Counted from the stretch's first letter, positions 10,148-64,000 are shown. The stretch is DNA of 64,000 nucleotides from a virus (IMGVR_UViG_3300033463_000045:1-64000), one strand, 5' to 3'. Program-made: numbers and translations. Notes: generated from the sequence alone by a model not told the origin.

Positions 10148-10768
10148 ATGAGATTAAAATTATCTGAATCTGGTCAACCTATTAATAGATTAGAACAAAA
10201 TATTTCAAAAAATATTTTACCTAAATTTAATAATTATGGTATTAAATTTAATAAAAATCCTAATCAAATAAATAAATATAAAAATATGTATACGGGTGTA
10301 GGTGAAGGTTTAATTTGTAAATTATATTTAAATACAACAAATCCTATAATAGATGATTGGAATGAAAATAATTCTGATTTATATGTTGCTGATTTATATG
10401 GTGAATTAAAAATGAATGGTAAAATAGAACAATTAGGACCATTATCAAGTAAAGATTCAAGTTCAGTAGATGAAGCAATGAAAGAGATAAATGTATCATC
10501 TAATAAAATGGCTTCTGATGAAGAAATCGAAAATGGCAAGATATATCCACCAAAAAGTAAATCTGGTAGTTTAAAACCTATGACTAAAAAACAATGGATT
10601 AATATGAAGAATGCTCTTGAAAATGAATTAAATGAAATTAAAGCTCAATTACAAAAAGCTGACGAAGAAGATGACGATGAAACTTATTATAATTTATATA
10701 AATATACTTATAAAGATAAGAGAGATTATTTTGATAAAGTATTTATGCCAAATTATCCATTTATTTAA
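10148..10768 (+). CDS. Hypothetical protein with N-terminal L-x-E|S motif (MRLKLSE|S)
   Basis: ORF with SD; promoter-motif variant at 10116-10130. Confidence 0.6.
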   Translation: MRLKLSESGQPINRLEQNISKNILPKFNNYGIKFNKNPNQINKYKNMYTGVGEGLICKLYLNTTNPIIDDWNENNSDLYVADLYGELKMNGKIEQLGPLSSKDSSSVDEAMKEINVSSNKMASDEEIENGKIYPPKSKSGSLKPMTKKQWINMKNALENELNEIKAQLQKADEEDDDETYYNLYKYTYKDKRDYFDKVFMPNYPFI

Positions 10769-11398: not shown

Positions 11399-12479
11399 TA
11401 ATAATTATAAATCTTTTGTATTTTTAGATGAATCAGAATTTTTTAAAGAAGCAAATCTATTAGATTTATATAGTAAAGCTAAAAGAGAAGATTCATTAGC
11501 TGGTATAAATAAAACTACAGGTAAAGGTAGAATCGATAGAGGAAGAGATTTAAAAAGTAAAGTTAGGTATTTTGGTTTATCAAATGATGGTACATTAAAT
11601 TTTAAAGTTGCATCAGGAACTAGAGCAGGTAAGTTCCATTATGTATTTTTAGAAACATTAATAACTGATTTTGATAAATATTATGAAGAAACTGTTATTG
11701 AAAATAGACAACATTTACAAGCAAAAGATTTAAATTTATTAATTACTAATTCAAATAATTTTAGAATAGGCTGCACTTGTGAAGATTTCTTATATTTTGC
11801 TTTTCAATATATGGCAACTCAAGGAGATTATGAAGCAAAAGATTTTGTTGAAACGAGAGCTCCAGAAAGAAATAATACAGGATTACATGGCGCTTTTTGT
11901 AAACATATAGTTGCAGTAATAGAAAATATTAGTACTAATACTAATATGAGAAATCAAATTGCTAAAGATATAGAAAACTTTATTTTATATTCTAATGATA
12001 TGGATTATGAAGAATTTCAAACACAAAATGCAGCTAATATGATTAAGCAAAGAAAACATAGTTCTAAATTTAAAAAGAAACCTAGTGATTATTGTAATGA
12101 ATATTTTGCTAGACTTGCTAAAACACATCCATTCTTAGATGATAAAGATATTAAACGTAGTTTAAAGATGGCAATGAATACTTATATTCATAATAATGAA
12201 GATGCTACTATAAATGGTTTCTTAAAAGATTTCTTTAAGATGACTATTGATGGTTTTGCAGATGAAATGAAATTACCTATTAGTGATGTTGAAGATTACT
12301 TTAATGAATTAGGATTTACTTCTAAAAGAGAAAAACAACAACAAAAAGTTAATAATATAATTAGTAATAATGCCGCTAATATAGATAATGAAATAGAAGA
12401 TATTGAAGATATAGAAACAGGACCTATTGAAGATAATAAAGCAAATATATTAAATAATAATAGAGGAGGAAATAGATAA
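11358..12479 (+). CDS. SWIM zinc-finger protein
   Basis: CTCEDF...FCKH SWIM signature. The N-terminus has LKE/LDE|S/FKE|A motifs. Confidence 0.7.
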   Translation: MIQMKTTNLLKEINNNYKSFVFLDESEFFKEANLLDLYSKAKREDSLAGINKTTGKGRIDRGRDLKSKVRYFGLSNDGTLNFKVASGTRAGKFHYVFLETLITDFDKYYEETVIENRQHLQAKDLNLLITNSNNFRIGCTCEDFLYFAFQYMATQGDYEAKDFVETRAPERNNTGLHGAFCKHIVAVIENISTNTNMRNQIAKDIENFILYSNDMDYEEFQTQNAANMIKQRKHSSKFKKKPSDYCNEYFARLAKTHPFLDDKDIKRSLKMAMNTYIHNNEDATINGFLKDFFKMTIDGFADEMKLPISDVEDYFNELGFTSKREKQQQKVNNIISNNAANIDNEIEDIEDIETGPIEDNKANILNNNRGGNR

Positions 12480-15418
12480 TGAACTTATATAGCAATATTA
12501 AGAAGAAGTTAAACGAATCTGATGACTATGAAGCCAATAGAAATGATATAATTAAGCAAGCAGCAGAATATTTATTTAATGATGTTAATGGTGATTGGGA
12601 TGAATCATTACCTGATTATGAAAAATTTACTGATTATTATATGGATTTAAATAAAAGAGATTATAATAAAGCAGTTAAATTAGCAGAGCAAGCATTAGGT
12701 AATTATGCTGAACATCATTATTATGATAGAGATTTTAATAATATCAATAAAAGTGGCGGGTTATTAGAATTAAATGATAATCATACTATGTGGGAATTAA
12801 ATAATCCAACATTAGATAATTCTGATTCAGCTTGGTATTTATATGACGATATAGTAACTCGTAAAATTAATGATTTTAAAGAAGAAACAGGAGAAGAACT
12901 ATATGGATGTGGTAGAAGTGGTAGACATATCTGTGTAGAACCAACTTTTGAAAACTGTTTAAATTTTTATAAATTACAAGAAGTTCAAGAAAGATTAGAA
13001 CAAGAAGCAATAGATGAATTTAATAATTATAGACCAGAAGAATTTAATGAATCTTCAATGTTAAAAGAAGAAGTTTGGAATGATTTTGGAGATAAAGAAT
13101 ATAAAGGAATTAAAATATCAATTGAAAAAAGTGATAAAGGAAAGACATGTTATATTCCATTACAAAACGATAAATTTAAAGTCGAACCACAAACGCAATT
13201 CTTTAATTGGAAAGATACTAAAAAATATATAGATAAAAAGTTAAATGAATCTGAAAAATTAAAAGAATCAGATACATCTGATATTACAAATAAAATAAAA
13301 AATGATGTTGGAGAAATAATAAGAAAACATTGGTCTACTATTTATAGTGATGAATGGTTCGATAAAAACGATTTAATAATTTCATTACCTGGAGATTATG
13401 ATAAACAAGAAGTTGTTATAGATTTTAAAAATAGAAAAGAACCATATTATCTTGTTAATTCTAATGAATTAAAAGAACTAAAAGAAGATTTAAAAGCTCT
13501 TGGATTAAAAGGATTACATATAAAAACTAAAATAATTAAACCTAGTTGGGAAGATAGAAAATACACAGAATTATTAAGCATAAGTTATATTTATGATGAT
13601 GAACCAAGAAAAGAAATTCATGAAGCAGAAAATAAAGATAATAAAATATATTATTTTATGGTAGGTATTTGTTTAGATAAAAATAGACCAAATGCTATTA
13701 AAGAAGATTTTGCTGATTGGCCTTGGACAAAAATACCTTATAAATTATTAGATGAAAACTGGGGTGTAGATAAAACAAAAGAAGAAGCAGTCAATTGGGT
13801 TAAAAATTATATTGCTGATGGCGTTCCTGGAACTTTTGGTATTGTTACTGAAGCAACAGAACCTTATGAAGGATTTAAAGAAGAAATTCATAATGGTAAT
13901 CATAATGACATGGATTGGTCAGATATTCAAAAAGGAAAATTAATTTATTCAGCTTATAAAGAAGATAAAAATCCAGAATCTATAAAAGTTATTGTTGATG
14001 AATCTCAAAAATTAGATGAATCTGAAGAAAAAGTAGTAACTAATTTAGATACTAATAATATGGTAGATGAATTAAGAAAACATTTTAAAAATATAACTAA
14101 TAAAAATTATATAAAAAATTCATTAAAAATGCATTTAAATAAAGGTTTTATAACTAAAGAAGAATATAATAAATTAAAAGAAGAATATAAATTAAATGAA
14201 TCTGAAAGTAATTATCAAAATGGAGAATTTATAGAACCAAAATGGTTTAAAGATAAAACATTATATAATGAATTTAAGAAATTTGTAGATTCACAATTAA
14301 GTGATGGTGCAATAGATGACCCTGATTATGTTAATACATTATCTCCAGAAGAATATGAAAGTTTATTAGTAAATACTTGGATGAAAGACCAAGAAGAAAT
14401 AGATATGTTTGAAGAACATATTAAAAGTGGTTATTATGGAGAAAAAGCAAAATCTTTAGTAGAATCTGATACAGAATCAGATATTATAGATGATGTTAAA
14501 ATGCCAAATGACCCTAATTTAGCTATTGGTGATAAGATTTGGGTTATAACTTATAATAACAAAAAACCAAAACTCCACATAGCAGAAGTTGTTAGTATGG
14601 CTGAAAATGGAAGATTTATTGGTTATCATTATTATTATGGTTGGAGTTCTTTATGTACAACTAATCATGGTTTTATGGCAGACCTATATAAAGCAGTAGA
14701 TAATAGAGATTTATCTAAAGATTATTTACATGAATCTGAAACAGAAGATTATTGGGATGCTACTGAATTAGATAGAGTAGGATTTATGGCTTTATTAAAA
14801 TTTAATAATCCAGAAGAACATTTAAATCCATCAATGCAATATATAATTACTAATGATAATAATGAAGTTTATAGATTTGCAATGCAAGGTGAAAATGAAA
14901 AGAATAAAGATATAGGAGCTAAAATAGAATTTAGAAAATATATTAATAAAGAAGAATCTGAAAAATTAAAAGAAGCAGTTGAATTATCTTATGATGATTA
15001 TTATGATTTTGGAAATGAAGATAATGAAGATGAATTATTCTGTGCTCAATGTGGTAATCCAGTAAAACCAGATTTCTGTTATGTTGTTGATGAATCAGAC
15101 CCACATTCAGAAGTTTATTGCTGGAGATGTTATGAAGATTTAAATGAATCTCAAAAATTAAATGAGTCAATTAGTTATGCTTCAGAAAAAGAAATTAAAG
15201 ATATGACAGATGAAGAATTAGAAGATTATTTAAAATACTTAAAAGATGAAATGATTTATCACACAACAAAGAAAAAAGCAGAAATTGAAAAAGAAATTGA
15301 AAAAATCACAAAAATATTATATGATAGAGACTATTATATTGATTATAGTAATCCGGATGTTAATACAATAAAATTTGATAAAGACGGTAATGAAATAACT
15401 ACAAAAGAAGACAAATAA
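12479..15418 (+). CDS. Putative virion-internal polyprotein: leader plus about 10 modules separated by LxE|S linkers
   Basis: Leader MNLYSNIKKKLNES. Internal FNESSMLKEE, LNESEKLKES, IHEA, VDESQKLDES, LNES, LVES, LHES, EESEKLKEA, LNESQKLNES. Confidence 0.7.
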   Translation: MNLYSNIKKKLNESDDYEANRNDIIKQAAEYLFNDVNGDWDESLPDYEKFTDYYMDLNKRDYNKAVKLAEQALGNYAEHHYYDRDFNNINKSGGLLELNDNHTMWELNNPTLDNSDSAWYLYDDIVTRKINDFKEETGEELYGCGRSGRHICVEPTFENCLNFYKLQEVQERLEQEAIDEFNNYRPEEFNESSMLKEEVWNDFGDKEYKGIKISIEKSDKGKTCYIPLQNDKFKVEPQTQFFNWKDTKKYIDKKLNESEKLKESDTSDITNKIKNDVGEIIRKHWSTIYSDEWFDKNDLIISLPGDYDKQEVVIDFKNRKEPYYLVNSNELKELKEDLKALGLKGLHIKTKIIKPSWEDRKYTELLSISYIYDDEPRKEIHEAENKDNKIYYFMVGICLDKNRPNAIKEDFADWPWTKIPYKLLDENWGVDKTKEEAVNWVKNYIADGVPGTFGIVTEATEPYEGFKEEIHNGNHNDMDWSDIQKGKLIYSAYKEDKNPESIKVIVDESQKLDESEEKVVTNLDTNNMVDELRKHFKNITNKNYIKNSLKMHLNKGFITKEEYNKLKEEYKLNESESNYQNGEFIEPKWFKDKTLYNEFKKFVDSQLSDGAIDDPDYVNTLSPEEYESLLVNTWMKDQEEIDMFEEHIKSGYYGEKAKSLVESDTESDIIDDVKMPNDPNLAIGDKIWVITYNNKKPKLHIAEVVSMAENGRFIGYHYYYGWSSLCTTNHGFMADLYKAVDNRDLSKDYLHESETEDYWDATELDRVGFMALLKFNNPEEHLNPSMQYIITNDNNEVYRFAMQGENEKNKDIGAKIEFRKYINKEESEKLKEAVELSYDDYYDFGNEDNEDELFCAQCGNPVKPDFCYVVDESDPHSEVYCWRCYEDLNESQKLNESISYASEKEIKDMTDEELEDYLKYLKDEMIYHTTKKKAEIEKEIEKITKILYDRDYYIDYSNPDVNTIKFDKDGNEITTKEDK

Positions 15419-30606: not shown

Positions 30607-32466
30607 GTGGCAATATTTAATAGAAAAAGTAAAATTAATTTAAATGAATCTCAGAAATTAAATGAAGCAACAAAAGAATTACAATTAGATATGACTTCAA
30701 TGTTTAATCTTCCTTATTATAGTTCTATTCAAAGATTACAAGGTGTAAATAATTCATTTACAATAAATAGTGCTGTTAAGCAATCTATGTTAAAAGACCC
30801 AGTTATTTCAAGAGTTATTAATATGTGGATTTCTGATACATTACAAAAAGATGTATTAACTAAAAATATTTATACTGTAGATATTACTAAAGCAGATGGT
30901 TTATTTGATAATGCTGAAAAAGTATCCGATGAAGAAATTAATGAACTTAATGAATGTATTAAATATTTAAGAAATAACTCAAATATAGATGAAGAATTAA
31001 CTTCTATATTATATCAAGTAATAGTTAATGGTTCTTGTACTGTTAGACTTGGTTTTGTAGATGGCTTTGAGGATACCAAGATAAAATTATTTGAGGGTGA
31101 AAAAGGAAATAAAAGTAAATTCTTAAAAGAAACAGAAAATTTAGATAAAGAAGACTTTAAAAAATTATTAGAAGCTCCTAATTATGATGATTATTTAGAT
31201 GATGAAAATGCTGATAAAAAGAATAAAAAGATTAAAAGATTATCTGGTAGATATTATATTGAAGTTCTACCAAAAAGAATAGTTCCATTAGTTTATAAAG
31301 GAATTACAATCTTATATTTAGATTTAGATAATACAAGAAAAGTATTAAATCCTAAAAATATATCTTCATTTATTAATAAAAAAGGTAATAATAAAACTAT
31401 TTCTATTAAAAATGAAGAAGATGATATATTAAGTGATATTTATACACTAGAATTAGGTGAATCATTTATAGATAATGCTGTTACTCCTTGGTCTATGTTA
31501 AATAGTGTAGAAGATTGCACTATGCTAGCATTAATGACAAGAAGTGCTATTTATAGATTATTTACTATTGAAGTAGGAGCAATGAGTACTAAAGAAACAG
31601 AAAAATTCTTACAAGAATTTAAAAATAGATTAACAACAAGAGAAACTATAAATGTTAGAGAAAAATATTATAGTTCAGCAGAAACTCAATTACCATTAGG
31701 TGATAGTATAGTAATACCTTTAAGAAATGGCATTGGTAATGTTAATTTACAAACAGTAGGAAATGATTTAAAGATAGATACTGATGGACCACTTAAATAT
31801 TTTAGACAACAATTATTAACTGCTTTAGGAGTTCCTGAAGGATTGATATATGGTGATACTGGTAATGGCGGTTTAATTAATACATCAGCAACTAAACAAG
31901 ATATAAGATATTTAAGAACTATTCAACAATTTACTTATATTATGGAAAAAGGTTTAGAGTCTATTTATAAAGATTATTTAAAGATGATTGGTGTAAATCT
32001 AAGTAAATTAGTTATAGATGTTAATTTTGCTCAAATTAATTCTGAACAAGACCAAGAAAGAATTGAATATGAACAAACTAAACAAGAAGCATTAGATAGA
32101 GCAATTACTTCATTAAATAATTTAGGTATTTCATTTGATGAAGGTGGCTATACTGAAACAAGAGAATTATTAATTAAGAGATACTTAGACCAAGAAATCT
32201 TAGATGCTATTAAAAATGATGAAGAAAATATGGATACCGGAAAATCTGATGATTCTAATGGTGAAGGTAAAGACCACGAATCATTACCTAGTGGAAGTTT
32301 AGCTTATTCTGGTGGAGGACCTAATATAGATATTAATATGGGAGAAGAAGAACCAACTGAAGAAGGTCCTGAAGAAAATACTGGAGAAGAAAATACTACT
32401 GAAGATGAACCTATAGATTTAGATAGTCTTGGTAATGAGCCTCCTGAAGCTAATGAAGAATTATAA
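30607..32466 (+). CDS. Portal protein (T4 gp20-like)
   Basis: ED..L.R..RLFTIEVGAM, LKYFRQQLLTALGVP, QDIRY.RTI, acidic tail. N-terminal LNESQKLNEA. Confidence 0.82.
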   Translation: MAIFNRKSKINLNESQKLNEATKELQLDMTSMFNLPYYSSIQRLQGVNNSFTINSAVKQSMLKDPVISRVINMWISDTLQKDVLTKNIYTVDITKADGLFDNAEKVSDEEINELNECIKYLRNNSNIDEELTSILYQVIVNGSCTVRLGFVDGFEDTKIKLFEGEKGNKSKFLKETENLDKEDFKKLLEAPNYDDYLDDENADKKNKKIKRLSGRYYIEVLPKRIVPLVYKGITILYLDLDNTRKVLNPKNISSFINKKGNNKTISIKNEEDDILSDIYTLELGESFIDNAVTPWSMLNSVEDCTMLALMTRSAIYRLFTIEVGAMSTKETEKFLQEFKNRLTTRETINVREKYYSSAETQLPLGDSIVIPLRNGIGNVNLQTVGNDLKIDTDGPLKYFRQQLLTALGVPEGLIYGDTGNGGLINTSATKQDIRYLRTIQQFTYIMEKGLESIYKDYLKMIGVNLSKLVIDVNFAQINSEQDQERIEYEQTKQEALDRAITSLNNLGISFDEGGYTETRELLIKRYLDQEILDAIKNDEENMDTGKSDDSNGEGKDHESLPSGSLAYSGGGPNIDINMGEEEPTEEGPEENTGEENTTEDEPIDLDSLGNEPPEANEEL

Positions 32467-43662: not shown

Positions 43663-45105
43663 ATGAATACAAATGAATTAGGAACTAAATTATATGAAGG
43701 AGATGTAAAAGAATTATTTATAAATGCATCTACAAAATTATATAATTCAGTAGTACATACTTTAGGACCTGATGGTCTTAACTCAGCAATACCAACAAGT
43801 AATCAATATTTAAGTATAATTAATGATGGTAAAACAATTTTAGAGACATTAAGTTCTGGAGATATAGCAGAAAAATTAGCAATAAATACATTAAAAGAAT
43901 CTTCATTTGCTACTAATAAAAATGCAGGTGATGGAACAACAACTACAATAATAATGCAACATGAATTATTATATAATATTCAAAATTATAATATTAATAA
44001 TGAAGAACAAATAACAGCAACATATTTAACAGATTTAAGAGATGATTTATTAGAAAAATTAAAAGATTTTAAATTAGATATTAAATCAGATGATGATTTA
44101 AAAAAGATTATTACTGTTTCTTTAGGTTCAAATAAATTTACTGATACAGTATTTAATGCTTTTAGTAATTTATCTATAAGTCAGAAACCTACATTAGTAA
44201 AAGTAAATACAAAAAGCACAACAGATTATGTTGAAATAGATGGAGTAAATTTAGCTCCAGTAGAAGTTAATCCAGTAGTATTAAAATCAATTAGTCTTAG
44301 TGGAGATGAACCATTAAACGTATTAATATTAAATCAAGAAGTATCAAGAATAGATAACTCATTTGCTGCTTTATTAACTAAGATTAGTAAGAGTAATAAA
44401 AAGACAATATTATTATATACAGATATAAAACCAAGTGTTATGGACCAATTATTATATAATATTCAAGAAGGAGCATTAAATCTTATTCCTGTAAGATTAG
44501 CAATGCCAATAACTCAAATAGATGAAATAATTTCAGACCTTGAAGAATATTTTAATTGTAAAGCATTAAGTGATATGTTACCATATCAAACTAATCATAA
44601 TAATGAAGAGATTTTTGGAAAAGGAATCGGTTATATTTTAAATAAAGATTCTGTAATAATTAAGAATGATAATGAAGAATATAATAATAAAGAACATTTA
44701 GTTCCATCTCATTCTTCAGCAATAGAAATTGGATTTATTACATTTAGTCAACAAGATGAAGATTATAGAAGATTAGAAGATGCTGTACAATCTGCATATA
44801 ATGCAAGAAATTATGGTTATGTATTAGGAGCAGGTTATACTTATTATTGTTTAGGTTGTTTATTAGATGATATAGAAAAGAATAAACCTATAATAAGTGC
44901 ATTACAAACTATATTTAATAGATTATCTCCTATAGATATTAAAAAAGAAGAATTTATTATTTATATAAGAGATAATATATTTGATAGTTATAAAGTAGTT
45001 GAACAAGTAATATTAAATTCATTTACTGTAGTTGCTCAAATATTATCTACTAATTGTGTATTAGTTCCATACCAAAGAAATAGAATAAATGGAAATATAG
45101 AATAA
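43663..45105 (+). CDS. GroEL-like chaperonin
   Basis: TLGPDG, INDGKTI, AGDGTTT, EDAV, GYVLGAG, IFDS.KV. Confidence 0.9.
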   Translation: MNTNELGTKLYEGDVKELFINASTKLYNSVVHTLGPDGLNSAIPTSNQYLSIINDGKTILETLSSGDIAEKLAINTLKESSFATNKNAGDGTTTTIIMQHELLYNIQNYNINNEEQITATYLTDLRDDLLEKLKDFKLDIKSDDDLKKIITVSLGSNKFTDTVFNAFSNLSISQKPTLVKVNTKSTTDYVEIDGVNLAPVEVNPVVLKSISLSGDEPLNVLILNQEVSRIDNSFAALLTKISKSNKKTILLYTDIKPSVMDQLLYNIQEGALNLIPVRLAMPITQIDEIISDLEEYFNCKALSDMLPYQTNHNNEEIFGKGIGYILNKDSVIIKNDNEEYNNKEHLVPSHSSAIEIGFITFSQQDEDYRRLEDAVQSAYNARNYGYVLGAGYTYYCLGCLLDDIEKNKPIISALQTIFNRLSPIDIKKEEFIIYIRDNIFDSYKVVEQVILNSFTVVAQILSTNCVLVPYQRNRINGNIE

Positions 45106-62170: not shown

Positions 62171-62395
62171 ATGAATTTATATAGTAATATTAAAAATAAT
62201 ATTAATAGTGCAGATTCTAAGTATATGAAAGAATGGACAGAAATATGTGAAGCATTTTGTAAGAAGATAAATGCTGAACTATTATTTGTTAATCTTGATA
62301 ACTTTGGTTATATGACTAAAGATGGTCAAACTATTCATATGTATGCTGATGAGCTTGCAGAATATCTAAATAATAAAAATAAGAATAATCAGTAA
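62171..62395 (+). CDS. MNLY-leader family small protein
   Basis: MNLYSNIKNNIN leader. Confidence 0.65.
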   Translation: MNLYSNIKNNINSADSKYMKEWTEICEAFCKKINAELLFVNLDNFGYMTKDGQTIHMYADELAEYLNNKNKNNQ

Positions 62396-62418
62396 ACAAT
62401 TTACTGATTATTTTCTTT
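62384..62418 (+). terminator. Hairpin / terminator
   Basis: AATAATCAGTAAA-CAA-TTTACTGATTATT-TTCTTT. Confidence 0.55.
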
Positions 62419-62437
62419 ATATAAGAGGAGATTATTT

Positions 62438-62683
62438 ATGAACTTATATGAAAGTATTGAAAAAAATTTAAAAGAATCAGAAAAATCTTTGGAAGACAAA
62501 TGTAAAGAAATATTTAATAAATATAGAGATGAATTTGATACTATAAATGATGTAAGAGATATTGCAGATTATTTAAATAAATTATATTCAGAAGAAGGAA
62601 TACAAGCTGTAAATGATTGGTTCCTATCGAGTGCAACTGAAGAATACAAAAAAGATTTAAAATCTTTAATAAATAAAAAGTAG
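62438..62683 (+). CDS. MNLY-leader family small protein
   Basis: MNLYESIEKNLKE|SE leader. Confidence 0.7.
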   Translation: MNLYESIEKNLKESEKSLEDKCKEIFNKYRDEFDTINDVRDIADYLNKLYSEEGIQAVNDWFLSSATEEYKKDLKSLINKK

Positions 62684-62697
62684 AAAGGAAAATAGAT

Positions 62698-62967
62698 ATG
62701 AACTTATATGAAAGTATTGAAAAAAATTTAAAAGAATCAGAACATTCTGATGATTATTGTACAATAGCTGCTACAGAATTTGTTGTTGATAGATTACCAA
62801 GTGATTGGAAAAATTTATCTAATGACGAATTAAAAGAATTAGTAAGAGAAGAAGTAAATAATTATAATAATGCTAATGTCGAACCTGAATATGAAAATGA
62901 AGATTTTTATGGTGATGAAGCAGATTATAATAAAGTATTTGATTATATAATATATAGTTATAAATAG
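62698..62967 (+). CDS. MNLY-leader family small acidic protein
   Basis: First 45 nt are identical to those of the 62438 gene. Confidence 0.7.
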   Translation: MNLYESIEKNLKESEHSDDYCTIAATEFVVDRLPSDWKNLSNDELKELVREEVNNYNNANVEPEYENEDFYGDEADYNKVFDYIIYSYK

Positions 62968-62981
62968 AAAGGAAGATTAAA

Positions 62982-63752
62982 ATGAATTTATATGAAAGTA
63001 TTAAAAATAATTTAGATAAAGATTCAGATACAGAATTAGAAATTTTAGATACTCAAATAGATTTTCCTGCCGTGTTTGATTCATTTGATACAAGCGGCAT
63101 TATTGATATAATAAAAGACACTGATTCAAAAGATTTAAGTGCGTGTATTGCAGGAGGAACAAGAAGTTCTCGCGAACAAAATGCATATAATTTATATATA
63201 GATAAATGCATTTTATGTGGCAAAGTAGGTTATAATAATTTTATCCCAGTGCATAAAAATAAATATAAAGATTATAGTTATTGGTCGTATGAAGACAATT
63301 ATGGATGGCCTTTTTCTAATGTTCATTTTCCATCTGAAAAAGTAGCCAAAATAATAGTTAAAATACCTCATAAACAACGCAAAAAAATTTATATAAGAGC
63401 AAGAATATGTTTTTGCAAAGATTGTTATGAGAAAAATGTCGTACCATTTGTGCTTAAAAAAGCAGATGAAATTAAAAAAATTGTCGCTTATTATAGAGAT
63501 AATAATAAATATCCAAGTAAAGGCGAGGTTATAATTTTTGGTAAGGATATATTAGATATAATTAATGACGGGATAATTAATGCTAGTCATTATAATAAAC
63601 ATGAAAAAAATAAAATAATCGATAGATTATATCAAATTGTTGATTTAGAAACACCTTATAATGATGTTGATAAGATTTATGAAAGATTTCTCAAATATTT
63701 TATTTCATCGGGTAACGCTGATGACTCAATTAAATTTAATCCAAAGAAATAG
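62982..63752 (+). CDS. MNLY-leader family protein with CxxC...CxxC
   Basis: MNLYESIKNNL leader; CILC, CFCKDC; atypical codons. Confidence 0.7.
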   Translation: MNLYESIKNNLDKDSDTELEILDTQIDFPAVFDSFDTSGIIDIIKDTDSKDLSACIAGGTRSSREQNAYNLYIDKCILCGKVGYNNFIPVHKNKYKDYSYWSYEDNYGWPFSNVHFPSEKVAKIIVKIPHKQRKKIYIRARICFCKDCYEKNVVPFVLKKADEIKKIVAYYRDNNKYPSKGEVIIFGKDILDIINDGIINASHYNKHEKNKIIDRLYQIVDLETPYNDVDKIYERFLKYFISSGNADDSIKFNPKK

Positions 63753-63766
63753 AAAGGAAGATTAAA

Positions 63767-64000
63767 ATGAATTTATATAGTAATATTAAAAATAATTTAA
63801 ATGAATCTGCAAAATTCTATTATAAAGAATTTAGTGGCGCTGGTGAAATTGATTATGTTGAATTTGAGACAGAACAAGAAGCAAATGATTATGCTAAAAA
63901 AGTTAATGAAGAATCTGGTAATGAAACAGCAGTATATAGAATAGATAATGATGAATGCATTGCTTTATATGACGCATTAAATGAATCTGAAAAGTTAAAA
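63767..64000 (+). CDS. MNLY-leader family protein, probable second polyprotein (3'-truncated; not in ORF track)
   Basis: MNLYSNIKNNLNE|SAKFYY...ALNE|SEKLK runs off the window end. Confidence 0.75.
   Translation, partial: MNLYSNIKNNLNESAKFYYKEFSGAGEIDYVEFETEQEANDYAKKVNEESGNETAVYRIDNDECIALYDALNESEKLK

What the first reader, a model, noticed from the sequence alone, without database searches (positions are those of the whole stretch)
62171..64000. Tandem cassette array of genes sharing a capsid-targeting-like leader MNLY(S/E)xIxxNLxE|S
Seen: five consecutive genes (62171, 62438, 62698, 62982, 63767) and the distant 12479 gene start with MNLY[SN/ES]I[K/E]xx[L/I], followed by unrelated bodies. 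The 45 nt ATGAACTTATATGAAAGTATTGAAAAAAATTTAAAAGAATCAGAA is identical at 62438 and 62698. The stretch AAATAGAAAGGAAGATTAAAATGAATTTATA (stop + SD + start) is identical at about 62962 and 63747. The last gene already shows an internal LNE|SEKLK linker at the window edge, so it is probably a second polyprotein. Known analogue: the T4 capsid-targeting sequence and the hypervariable IPI locus. Inference: an expandable array of injected cargo proteins, swapped by recombination at the shared SD+leader sequence. The 62171 and 62982 leaders lack a clean LxE and may not be trimmed.
Basis: partly seen in the sequence, partly recalled or inferred. Interest (0 to 1): 0.82.

Follow-up and report, generated by a model that had tools for sequence, protein, structure and literature searches.

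The report
Shared head-targeting leader on phage cargo genes
An uncultured 112-kb phage with a T4-type head starts 13 otherwise unrelated genes with the same 13-14-residue leader, which ends in the predicted cut site of its head protease, so these are most likely proteins loaded into the capsid, a larger and modular version of the three T4 internal proteins; no experiment has tested this.

Summary
Observation confirmed and extended. The five genes at 62171-64000 and the gene at 12479 do share the leader. A sixth array gene starts at 64653, and the 112,265-bp genome has 13 such genes (12% of its length).

Interpretation supported by indirect evidence only:
- The phage has a T4-type portal, major capsid protein and S77 (gp21-family) prohead protease.
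- The leader ends in L-x-E|S, which matches the T4 gp21 cleavage rule (L/I-x-E).
- L-[NK]-E-S is 16-fold enriched in leader and head proteins. It also lies near the N-terminus of the portal and capsid protein and inside the protease.
- Leader positions 4 (Tyr) and 7 (Ile) are nearly invariant. These are the positions that carry targeting in the T4 capsid-targeting sequence.
- Six contigs of related phages carry 1-5 genes with the same leader beside their protease gene, on different bodies.
- The syntenic locus holds 1, 2, at least 4 or 6 leader genes in four phages.
- The body of 62438 is 95% identical to the last module of a relative's polyprotein. The homology breakpoint falls on the Glu-Ser cut-site codons.

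Packaging, cleavage and injection are untested, and the cargo functions in the window are unknown. This is a new variant of the T4 CTS/internal-protein system. The scan has noted similar leader arrays in many other genomes.

The parts
62171..62395 (+). Array gene 1 (74 aa): leader without an L-x-E end, plus a small alpha-3beta-alpha domain ('module A')
   Evidence: ORF and leader. It is 85% identical to the first array gene in L125 and L128. The body recurs as the C-terminal module of 63767. AF2 model pLDDT 79, with residues 1-11 of the leader below pLDDT 50. No PDB fold match.
62438..62683 (+). Array gene 2 (81 aa): leader ending L-K-E|S plus a 68-aa acidic body
   Evidence: The body is 94.6% identical to the last module of a 359-aa polyprotein in relative L125. 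The DNA homology begins exactly at the GAA-TCA (Glu-Ser) codons.
62698..62967 (+). Array gene 3 (89 aa): leader ending L-K-E|S plus a 76-aa acidic body (pI 4.1)
   Evidence: Its first 45 nt are identical to those of gene 2. No family hit.
62982..63752 (+). Array gene 4 (256 aa): leader without a clean L-x-E end; Cys-rich, slightly basic ORFan body
   Evidence: It matched only itself among 1.84 billion representative proteins. No Pfam, PHROG, Atlas or PDB match.
63767..64000 (+). Array gene 5 (289 aa, runs to 64636 of the genome): leader ending L-N-E|S plus three modules split by L-N-E|S and I-N-E|S; the last module is a copy of module A
62426..62488 (+). Reference copy of the repeated junction unit (SD, start codon, leader codons). 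Other copies lie at 62686-62748, 62970-63032 and 63755-63817, and at 64641-64703 outside the window.
   Evidence: the repeat finder family D1, five copies, 65-100% identity. Gaps before the leader genes are mostly a stereotyped 14 nt. The same junction occurs in relatives L125 and L128.
12479..15418 (+). Distant leader gene: a 979-aa polyprotein in the structural region with about seven internal L-[NKD]-E-S linkers
   Evidence: One module (residues 599-653) matches the polyprotein of relative L127.
30607..32466 (+). T4 gp20-type portal with an I-N-L-N-E|S motif at residues 10-15, which supports the predicted protease specificity
   Evidence: Pfam Portal_T4 2e-24; motif positions.

Best explanation
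The leader (consensus MNLYESIKNNLKE|S) is a capsid-targeting propeptide. During head assembly it brings the attached protein into the prohead core. The phage's gp21-family serine protease (genome 82360-83178) then cuts after the Glu of L-x-E|S. This removes the leader and splits the longer members into modules of roughly 60-200 residues at internal linkers that carry the same motif. The mature modules stay in the head with the DNA and probably enter the host with it.

Because every cassette starts with the same stop+SD+leader DNA, and every internal linker carries the same Glu-Ser codons, recombination or in-frame deletion at these short repeats moves modules. They shift between stand-alone genes, polyproteins and different loci without losing targeting or processing, so the cargo set turns over quickly.

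Shown here: the leader family, its conservation, the motif enrichment, the head-gene homologies, the locus variability and one mapped junction. Inferred: targeting, cleavage, retention in the head, injection and any function of the cargo.
For: 1. Thirteen ORFs start with the leader, and their bodies are mostly unrelated by BLASTP.
2. Head genes are T4-type: Portal_T4 2e-24, Gp23 capsid protein 4e-10 and Peptidase_S77 1.6e-11 (above the Pfam cut-off), phrog_207 head maturation protease 6e-41. The protease matches 876 phage records, many of them T4-like cyanophages and coliphages.
3. T4 gp21 cuts after Glu in L/I-x-E (PMC9026906). L-[NK]-E-S occurs 27 times in 7,807 residues of leader and head proteins against 6 times in 27,690 residues elsewhere (odds ratio 16, p = 5e-13). 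It lies near the N-terminus of the portal and capsid protein, and at about residues 150-165 of the protease, where relatives carry related motifs ending in E|S.
4. T4 ipII and ipIII start MKTYQEFIAE and ipI starts MKTFKEF. Targeting depends mainly on residues 4 and 7, and processing on residues 8 and 10. In 35 leaders from this phage and nine contigs of relatives, Tyr4 is present in 34 of 35 and Ile7 in 34 of 35, followed by L11-x-E13.
5. Selection acts on the protein. Synonymous codons vary at positions 2, 3, 4, 6 (AGT, AGC and TCA), 7, 11 and 14.
6. All six protease-bearing contigs read have 1-5 leader genes beside the protease gene, on different bodies.
7. The syntenic locus between the gene upstream of the array (61671) and the primase (68400) holds 6 leader genes here, at least 4 in L125, 2 in L128 and 1 in L127.
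8. Modules occur in permuted order, in other loci, and either free-standing or fused. 69% of homology-block ends lie within 10 residues of a candidate site or a terminus, against 27% for random positions.
9. The breakpoint between the 62438 gene and the L125 polyprotein lies at the Glu-Ser codons.
10. One family member (81371) is a YodL-like domain (2e-10, above the cut-off). Iyer et al. list this domain among proteins delivered together with invading DNA (PMC5512222).
Against: - There is no protein-level evidence. The phage is uncultured, so neither virion content nor cleavage is known.
- Two of the five window genes (62171, 62982) lack L-x-E at the end of the leader.
- The window array sits among replication genes, not head genes, and its time of expression is unknown. 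Promoter scans were uninformative.
- None of the window cassettes has a recognisable function.
- The ArdA-like end of the sixth gene is only a sub-threshold Pfam hit, and neither PDB sequence search nor a poor fold model backed it.
- L-x-E-S is a short motif in a Glu-, Lys- and Asn-rich proteome. Its enrichment partly reflects shared ancestry of the linkers.
- If all of the 4,547 residues of leader proteins were packaged in many copies, they would compete with DNA for head space.
Confidence: 0.66

Rival explanations
1. The leader proteins are prohead core or scaffold components, like T4 gp22, gp67 and gp68. They are targeted and cut by the protease, but the fragments are expelled or serve only in assembly and are not delivered to the host.
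For: The motif-rich, acidic, multiply cleavable polyproteins resemble T4 core proteins, which gp21 cuts into several fragments. 80042 is basic and conserved next to the protease in relatives (74% and 57% identity), as an assembly component would be.
Against: An assembly scaffold should be conserved. Most members are instead ORFans or are shuffled between close relatives. Predicted fragments of 60-200 residues are the size of the T4 internal proteins that stay in the head, not of small expelled peptides. The YodL-like domain points to a host target.
Confidence: 0.15
2. The shared start is only a trace of serial gene duplication, or an element kept for translation initiation or mRNA regulation (SD plus an A/U-rich start). 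It has no role in protein sorting.
For: The conserved unit includes the stop codon and the SD, and is identical at DNA level over 32-45 nt between neighbours. A/U-rich early codons favour initiation in general (established knowledge).
Against: Residues are conserved through synonymous codon changes, including a switch between Ser codon families. The leader persists in relatives whose protease is 57-88% identical, while the bodies differ. A leader-like segment also lies inside a protein (81712, about residues 77-92), where it cannot serve initiation. The end of the leader coincides with the motif found at internal linkers and in head proteins.
Confidence: 0.1
3. The leader is a sorting or recognition tag for some other machine, such as secretion, membrane insertion, or the phage's own GroEL-like chaperonin at 43663-45105.
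For: The phage encodes a chaperonin-like protein. The tag sits at the N-terminus, like secretion signals.
Against: The leader is short and polar and has no hydrophobic core. It ends in the cleavage motif expected of the head protease, and the genes cluster around the protease gene in relatives.
Confidence: 0.05

Closest known systems
Phage T4 capsid-targeting sequence (CTS) on internal proteins IPI, IPII, IPIII and Alt, and the polymorphic internal-protein loci of T-even phages
   Same: - A short N-terminal propeptide is shared by otherwise unrelated proteins.
- It has an aromatic residue at position 4 and a hydrophobic one at position 7, and ends in L/I-x-E.
- The phage carries a gp21-family prohead protease, a gp20-type portal and a gp23-type capsid protein.
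- The genes lie outside the main head-gene cluster.
- The cargo set is diverse and only the leader is conserved.
   Different: - The leader is 13-14 residues rather than 10, has a different sequence, and in most copies holds two N-L-x-E-S pentapeptides.
- There are 13 genes (12% of the genome) against T4's internal proteins and Alt.
- Several members are polyproteins of 3 to about 15 modules joined by cleavage-motif linkers.
- Most modules are acidic, whereas a T4 paper describes the T4 internal proteins as highly basic.
- The phage belongs to an AT-rich uncultured clade whose nearest cultured relatives infect Bacillus, Listeria and Streptococcus, at 23-30% capsid-protein identity.
- Nothing has been tested experimentally.
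Head and ejection proteins of giant phages phiKZ, 201phi2-1 and SPN3US, processed by gp21 homologues
   Same: Many head proteins are cut after Glu at a three-residue motif by a gp21 homologue. Propeptides are inferred to act as targeting signals. Paralog families vary in number between phages.
   Different: Their propeptides are mostly long (over 100 residues) and are not one short leader shared by unrelated bodies. Their motif is S/A-x-E rather than L-x-E-S. Their genomes are over 200 kb.
Polyvalent proteins of phages and conjugative elements (Iyer, Burroughs, Anand, de Souza, Aravind 2017, PMC5512222)
   Same: Multi-module polypeptides that are proposed to be packaged and delivered with the DNA. 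They show extensive mosaicism. YodL and ArdA domains are among their parts.
   Different: Here the modules are joined by the head protease's own cut motif and are headed by a CTS-like leader. Most modules are small ORFans rather than recognisable enzymes. No MuF or metallopeptidase domain was seen in the proteins scanned.
PeSL cassettes (promoter-early stem-loops) that mediate modular shuffling in T4-type phages (PMC2839356)
   Same: A short conserved unit that flanks ORFans is proposed as the site of homologous exchange, so cassettes move without disrupting their neighbours.
   Different: The repeated unit here is stop+SD+leader codons and in-frame linker codons. It is not a promoter with a stem-loop, and exchange can occur inside coding sequence.

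Membership tests
T4-type CTS / internal-protein system | One short N-terminal propeptide shared by proteins with unrelated mature parts | tested here: met
   13 genes share the leader. BLASTP of the bodies found only two related pairs among them.
T4-type CTS / internal-protein system | The propeptide ends in the prohead protease cleavage motif (L/I-x-E) | tested here: met
   - 7 of 13 have L-[NK]-E-S at residues 11-14.
- 4 more have a variant, or a site within 10 residues.
- 2 (62171, 62982) have none.
T4-type CTS / internal-protein system | The genome encodes a gp21-family (Peptidase S77) prohead protease together with a gp20-type portal and a gp23-type capsid protein | tested here: met
   Pfam S77 44.5 bits (cut-off 27), phrog_207 6e-41, Portal_T4 86 bits, Gp23 40 bits.
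T4-type CTS / internal-protein system | Targeting determinants at leader positions 4 and 7 | tested here: inconclusive
   Tyr4 and Ile7 are each present in 34 of 35 leaders, which matches T4's Tyr/Phe4 and Phe7. Only sequence was compared, not function.
T4-type CTS / internal-protein system | The proteins are present in the virion, are cleaved there and are injected | not testable with these tools
   The phage is uncultured and no proteomic data are held.
T4-type CTS / internal-protein system | Cargo loci are polymorphic between related phages | tested here: met
   The syntenic locus holds 6, at least 4, 2 or 1 leader genes in four phages, and their modules are shuffled.
Polyvalent proteins (Iyer et al. 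2017) | Several domains with disparate, recognisable activities in one polypeptide encoded by a phage or conjugative element | tested here: inconclusive
   The multi-module build is clear. Only a YodL-like domain (as a single-domain gene) and a sub-threshold ArdA hit (20.7 bits against a cut-off of 27) were recognised.
PeSL recombination cassettes | An intergenic sigma-70-like promoter plus a stem-loop flanking the ORFans | tested here: not met
   Most gaps are 14 nt of stop+SD. Promoter-like sites were no more frequent than in shuffled sequence, and no terminator-like hairpin was reported at the junctions between array genes.
ArdA antirestriction protein (C-terminal module of the sixth array gene, outside the window) | Sequence or fold match to ArdA | tested here: inconclusive
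   Pfam ArdA E = 6.7e-4, below the cut-off. No PDB sequence hit with a 3-sequence profile. AF2 model pLDDT 57, and ArdA entry 2w82 appears only at rank 39 with TM 0.2-0.3.

The most novel reading that the evidence does not exclude
The leader and the L-x-E|S linkers form a combinatorial grammar. The codons of the protease cut site double as recombination joints, so any module can be moved between a stand-alone gene, a polyprotein and another locus and still be packaged, released and delivered. This would be an integron-like cargo library working at the protein-processing level. It would also give a natural, portable tag for loading proteins into the heads of phages of Gram-positive-type hosts.
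Probability: 0.35. Interest if true: 0.75.

Novelty: new variant of a known kind. Interest (0 to 1): 0.6.

Why it matters
If the leader works as predicted, this phage clade devotes about an eighth of its genome to a fast-changing set of proteins delivered with the DNA. That set is a pool of candidate counter-defence and host-takeover factors, and almost none of them has a known family.

The polyprotein build with cut-site linkers shows how a phage can enlarge and reshuffle such a set without reinventing targeting. The short leader could be tested as a tag for packaging chosen proteins into phage heads, as was done with the T4 CTS.

The principle itself has been known in T4 since the 1990s, and this scan has noted comparable leader arrays in many other uncultured phages. 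The gain here is breadth and mechanism, not a new kind of system.

Tried and rejected
Searches for kin:
- Exact-pattern scans of IMG/VR for the leader DNA gave nothing with the strict pattern. The looser pattern gave 106 single hits, none continuing into the N-L-x-E-S half of the leader, so they are chance or unrelated.
- The search for related loci with the protease alone found no kin in IMG/VR.
- The genome search cannot draw relatives for a virus record and cannot reach the Logan/ENA records. I could therefore not count leaders over whole genomes of relatives.
- tblastn of a 21-residue leader against cultured phages gave no match.

Cultured relatives: 40-kb stretches around the protease of Bacillus phage HSE3 and Listeria phage LIS04 have no shared-leader family. 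They gave 1 and 2 marginal N-terminal pairs, against 91 pairs in this genome. Only part of each genome was read.

Expression timing: sigma-70-type promoter and terminator scans and a T4-late-type TATAAATA count gave no usable signal.

Cargo function in the window:
- Pfam and PHROGs gave nothing above threshold.
- ESM Atlas scores were at most 0.87, so leads only.
- PDB sequence search gave nothing.
- An exhaustive profile search found the 256-aa protein to be an ORFan.
- The module-A model has no fold match (Foldseek E at least 0.3, best VIA Z 4.7).

ArdA-like module: inconclusive.

I considered I-C-E|A inside module A as a cut site and set it aside. It lies in the confidently folded helix, and the fused copy has Gln in place of Glu.

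Full report
WHAT IS THERE. The window is the first 64 kb of a 112,265-bp IMG/VR virus record with direct terminal repeats. It is about 23% G+C, and all long ORFs lie on the + strand. At 62171, 62438, 62698, 62982 and 63767 five back-to-back ORFs of 74, 81, 89, 256 and 289 aa start M-N-L-Y-[SE]-[NS]-I-[KE]-x-N. The 979-aa ORF at 12479 starts the same way. With the whole genome in hand, the array continues with a sixth gene (64653, 1217 aa). There are 13 leader genes in all: 12479; 62171-68306; 80042 and 81371; 99923, 100292 and 100936; and 105281. Together they make up 4,547 residues, or 12% of the genome. MNLY occurs 13 times against 0.31 expected, and always at an N-terminus.

THE HEAD MACHINERY IS T4-TYPE. 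The portal (30607) matches Portal_T4 and the capsid protein (105890) matches Gp23. The gene at 82360-83178 is a Peptidase_S77 (gp21-family) prohead protease, above Pfam's cut-off, and matches phrog_207 at 6e-41. By tblastn the protease matches 876 phage records, many of them T4-like cyanophages and coliphages. The nearest cultured capsid proteins are only 23-30% identical (Listeria LIS04, Bacillus SP-15 and HSE3, Streptococcus GXN1).

THE LEADER ENDS IN THE PREDICTED CUT SITE. T4 gp21 cuts after Glu in L/I-x-E (PMC9026906). Here LNES and LKES are among the most over-represented tetrapeptides, at 19 and 14 copies against 1.3 expected each. L-[NK]-E-S occurs 27 times in the 7,807 residues of leader and head-module proteins and 6 times in the other 27,690 residues (odds ratio 16, p = 5e-13). 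Apart from ending the leader in 7 of 13 genes, the motif has three kinds of site:
- It separates modules inside the long members.
- It lies at residues 10-15 of the portal, and at residues 32-36 (A-L-K-E|S) of the capsid protein, which also has an M-N-E|S site near residue 65.
- It lies at about residues 150-165 of the protease itself, where the relatives carry related motifs ending in E|S. This recalls the C-terminal self-processing of gp21.

THE LEADER RESEMBLES THE T4 CTS IN THE POSITIONS THAT MATTER. T4 ipII and ipIII begin MKTYQEFIAE, and ipI begins MKTFKEF (read from the T4 record; CTS as quoted). Suppressor studies placed targeting mainly at residues 4 and 7 and processing at residues 8 and 10. 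I compared 35 leaders, 13 from this genome and 22 from nine contigs of relatives. Met1 is present in 35 of 35, Asn2 and Leu3 in 33 each, Tyr4 and Ile7 in 34 each, Asn10 in 30, Leu11 in 24 and Glu13 in 22. Synonymous codons vary at most of these positions, including Ser6 as AGT, AGC or TCA, so selection acts on the peptide and not only on the DNA. In most copies the leader holds two N-L-x-E-S pentapeptides, at residues 2-6 and 10-14.

RELATIVES.
- The protease has dozens of homologues at 55-88% identity on Logan and ENA contigs. Every contig I read (L013, L014, L015, L122, L123, L124) has one to five leader genes next to the protease gene, with bodies that mostly differ.
- The gene just upstream of the window array (61671) served as an anchor for the syntenic locus. 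Between it and the primase this phage has six leader genes. L125, whose anchor is 93% identical, has at least four (74, 371, 357 and over 246 aa). L128 has two (74 and 1094 aa). L127 has one (688 aa) plus a GIY-YIG gene.
- Modules are shuffled. The body of 62438 is 94.6% identical to the last module of the L125 357-aa polyprotein. Module A of 62171 heads the array in two relatives and is also the last module of 63767. The 1217-aa protein and the L128 1094-aa protein share five blocks in permuted order. Modules of the distant genes 100292 and 99923 sit inside relatives' polyproteins.
- 69% of block ends lie within 10 residues of a candidate site or a terminus, against 27% for random positions and at most 42% in 2,000 trials. 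Full-length matches inflate this somewhat.
- A DNA alignment of the 62438 gene with the L125 polyprotein shows unrelated sequence upstream: the leader here and a linker there. About 96% identity begins exactly at the GAA-TCA-GAA codons and runs through the next stop+SD+start junction.

INTERPRETATION. The leader is a capsid-targeting propeptide removed by the S77 protease. The long members are polyproteins cut into modules inside the prohead. The cargo set is reshuffled by exchange at the repeated junction and linker sequences.

I give this account 0.66. The injection step is the weakest part, resting on the T4 analogy and on a YodL-like domain in 81371, a domain that Iyer et al. list among proteins delivered with DNA.

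The main rival is that these are core or scaffold proteins whose fragments are discarded (0.15). A duplication or translation relic (0.10) fits poorly with the codon evidence and with the leader-like segment inside 81712. Another sorting role (0.05) fits poorly with the leader's polar make-up and its cut-site ending.

WHAT REMAINS UNKNOWN. None of the five window cassettes has a recognisable function. The 256-aa protein is an ORFan among 1.84 billion representatives. Module A folds confidently as alpha-3beta-alpha with a low-confidence leader, but matches no solved fold. Most modules are acidic, although the whole proteome is acidic too (median pI 5.1). Expression timing could not be read from the sequence. 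Genes 62171 and 62982 lack a cut site at the end of the leader. In T4 an Asp at the cut position blocks processing but not targeting, so these two may be packaged uncut.

NOVELTY. This is a new variant of the T4 CTS/internal-protein system, not a new kind. The differences are:
- the sequence and length of the leader;
- the size of the family;
- the polyprotein build with cut-site linkers;
- the comparative evidence that leader and linker codons mark exchange points.

Two cultured distant relatives show no such family near their head genes. Within this scan, similar leader arrays have been noted in over 200 other genomes, and this same family was noted from overlapping windows.

Noticed in passing
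window 10148-10768; genome 76145, 76795, 77342: There is a second, shorter N-terminal propeptide type, M-[KR]-[LI]-[KR]-L-..-E|[SA], on head-region genes that lack the MNLY leader (for example M-R-L-K-L-S-E|S at 10148). For 77342 it is conserved in relatives L013, L015 and L123. It probably marks further substrates of the protease.
   Followed up: partly
genome 81712-82347 (L009:17712-18347), just upstream of the protease: In the closest relative this gene is a 98-aa protein. Here it is fused in frame to a leader-like segment (about residues 77-92, ending L-N-E|S) and a further 120-aa body. It looks like a cassette captured by loss of a stop codon.
   Followed up: partly
genome 81371-81709 (L009:17371-17709): A leader gene whose body is a YodL-like domain (Pfam 2e-10, above the cut-off). 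Iyer et al. [quoted passage not shown]
   Followed up: partly
genome 82360-83178 (protease): Two cut motifs, V-P-L-T-E|S and P-I-K-E|S, lie at about residues 150-165, between the S77 domain and a C-terminal tail of about 110 residues. Related motifs occur at the same place in L122-L124. This suggests self-processing like that of T4 gp21.
   Followed up: partly
window 43663-45105: A 480-aa ORF that looks like a phage-encoded GroEL/Cpn60-type chaperonin, judged by eye from the translation. It was not scanned against a family library.
   Followed up: no
L127:12716-13570 (relative): A GIY-YIG homing-endonuclease-like gene sits between the single cargo polyprotein and the primase in one relative, so this locus also takes up mobile endonucleases.
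   Followed up: no
window 62396-62437: This is the only long gap in the array (42 nt). It holds a short inverted repeat, CAGTAAA..TTTACTG, that overlaps the stop codon of 62171 and is followed by a T-rich run. It may be a weak terminator or attenuator after the conserved first gene. It was not reported by the terminator scan.
   Followed up: no
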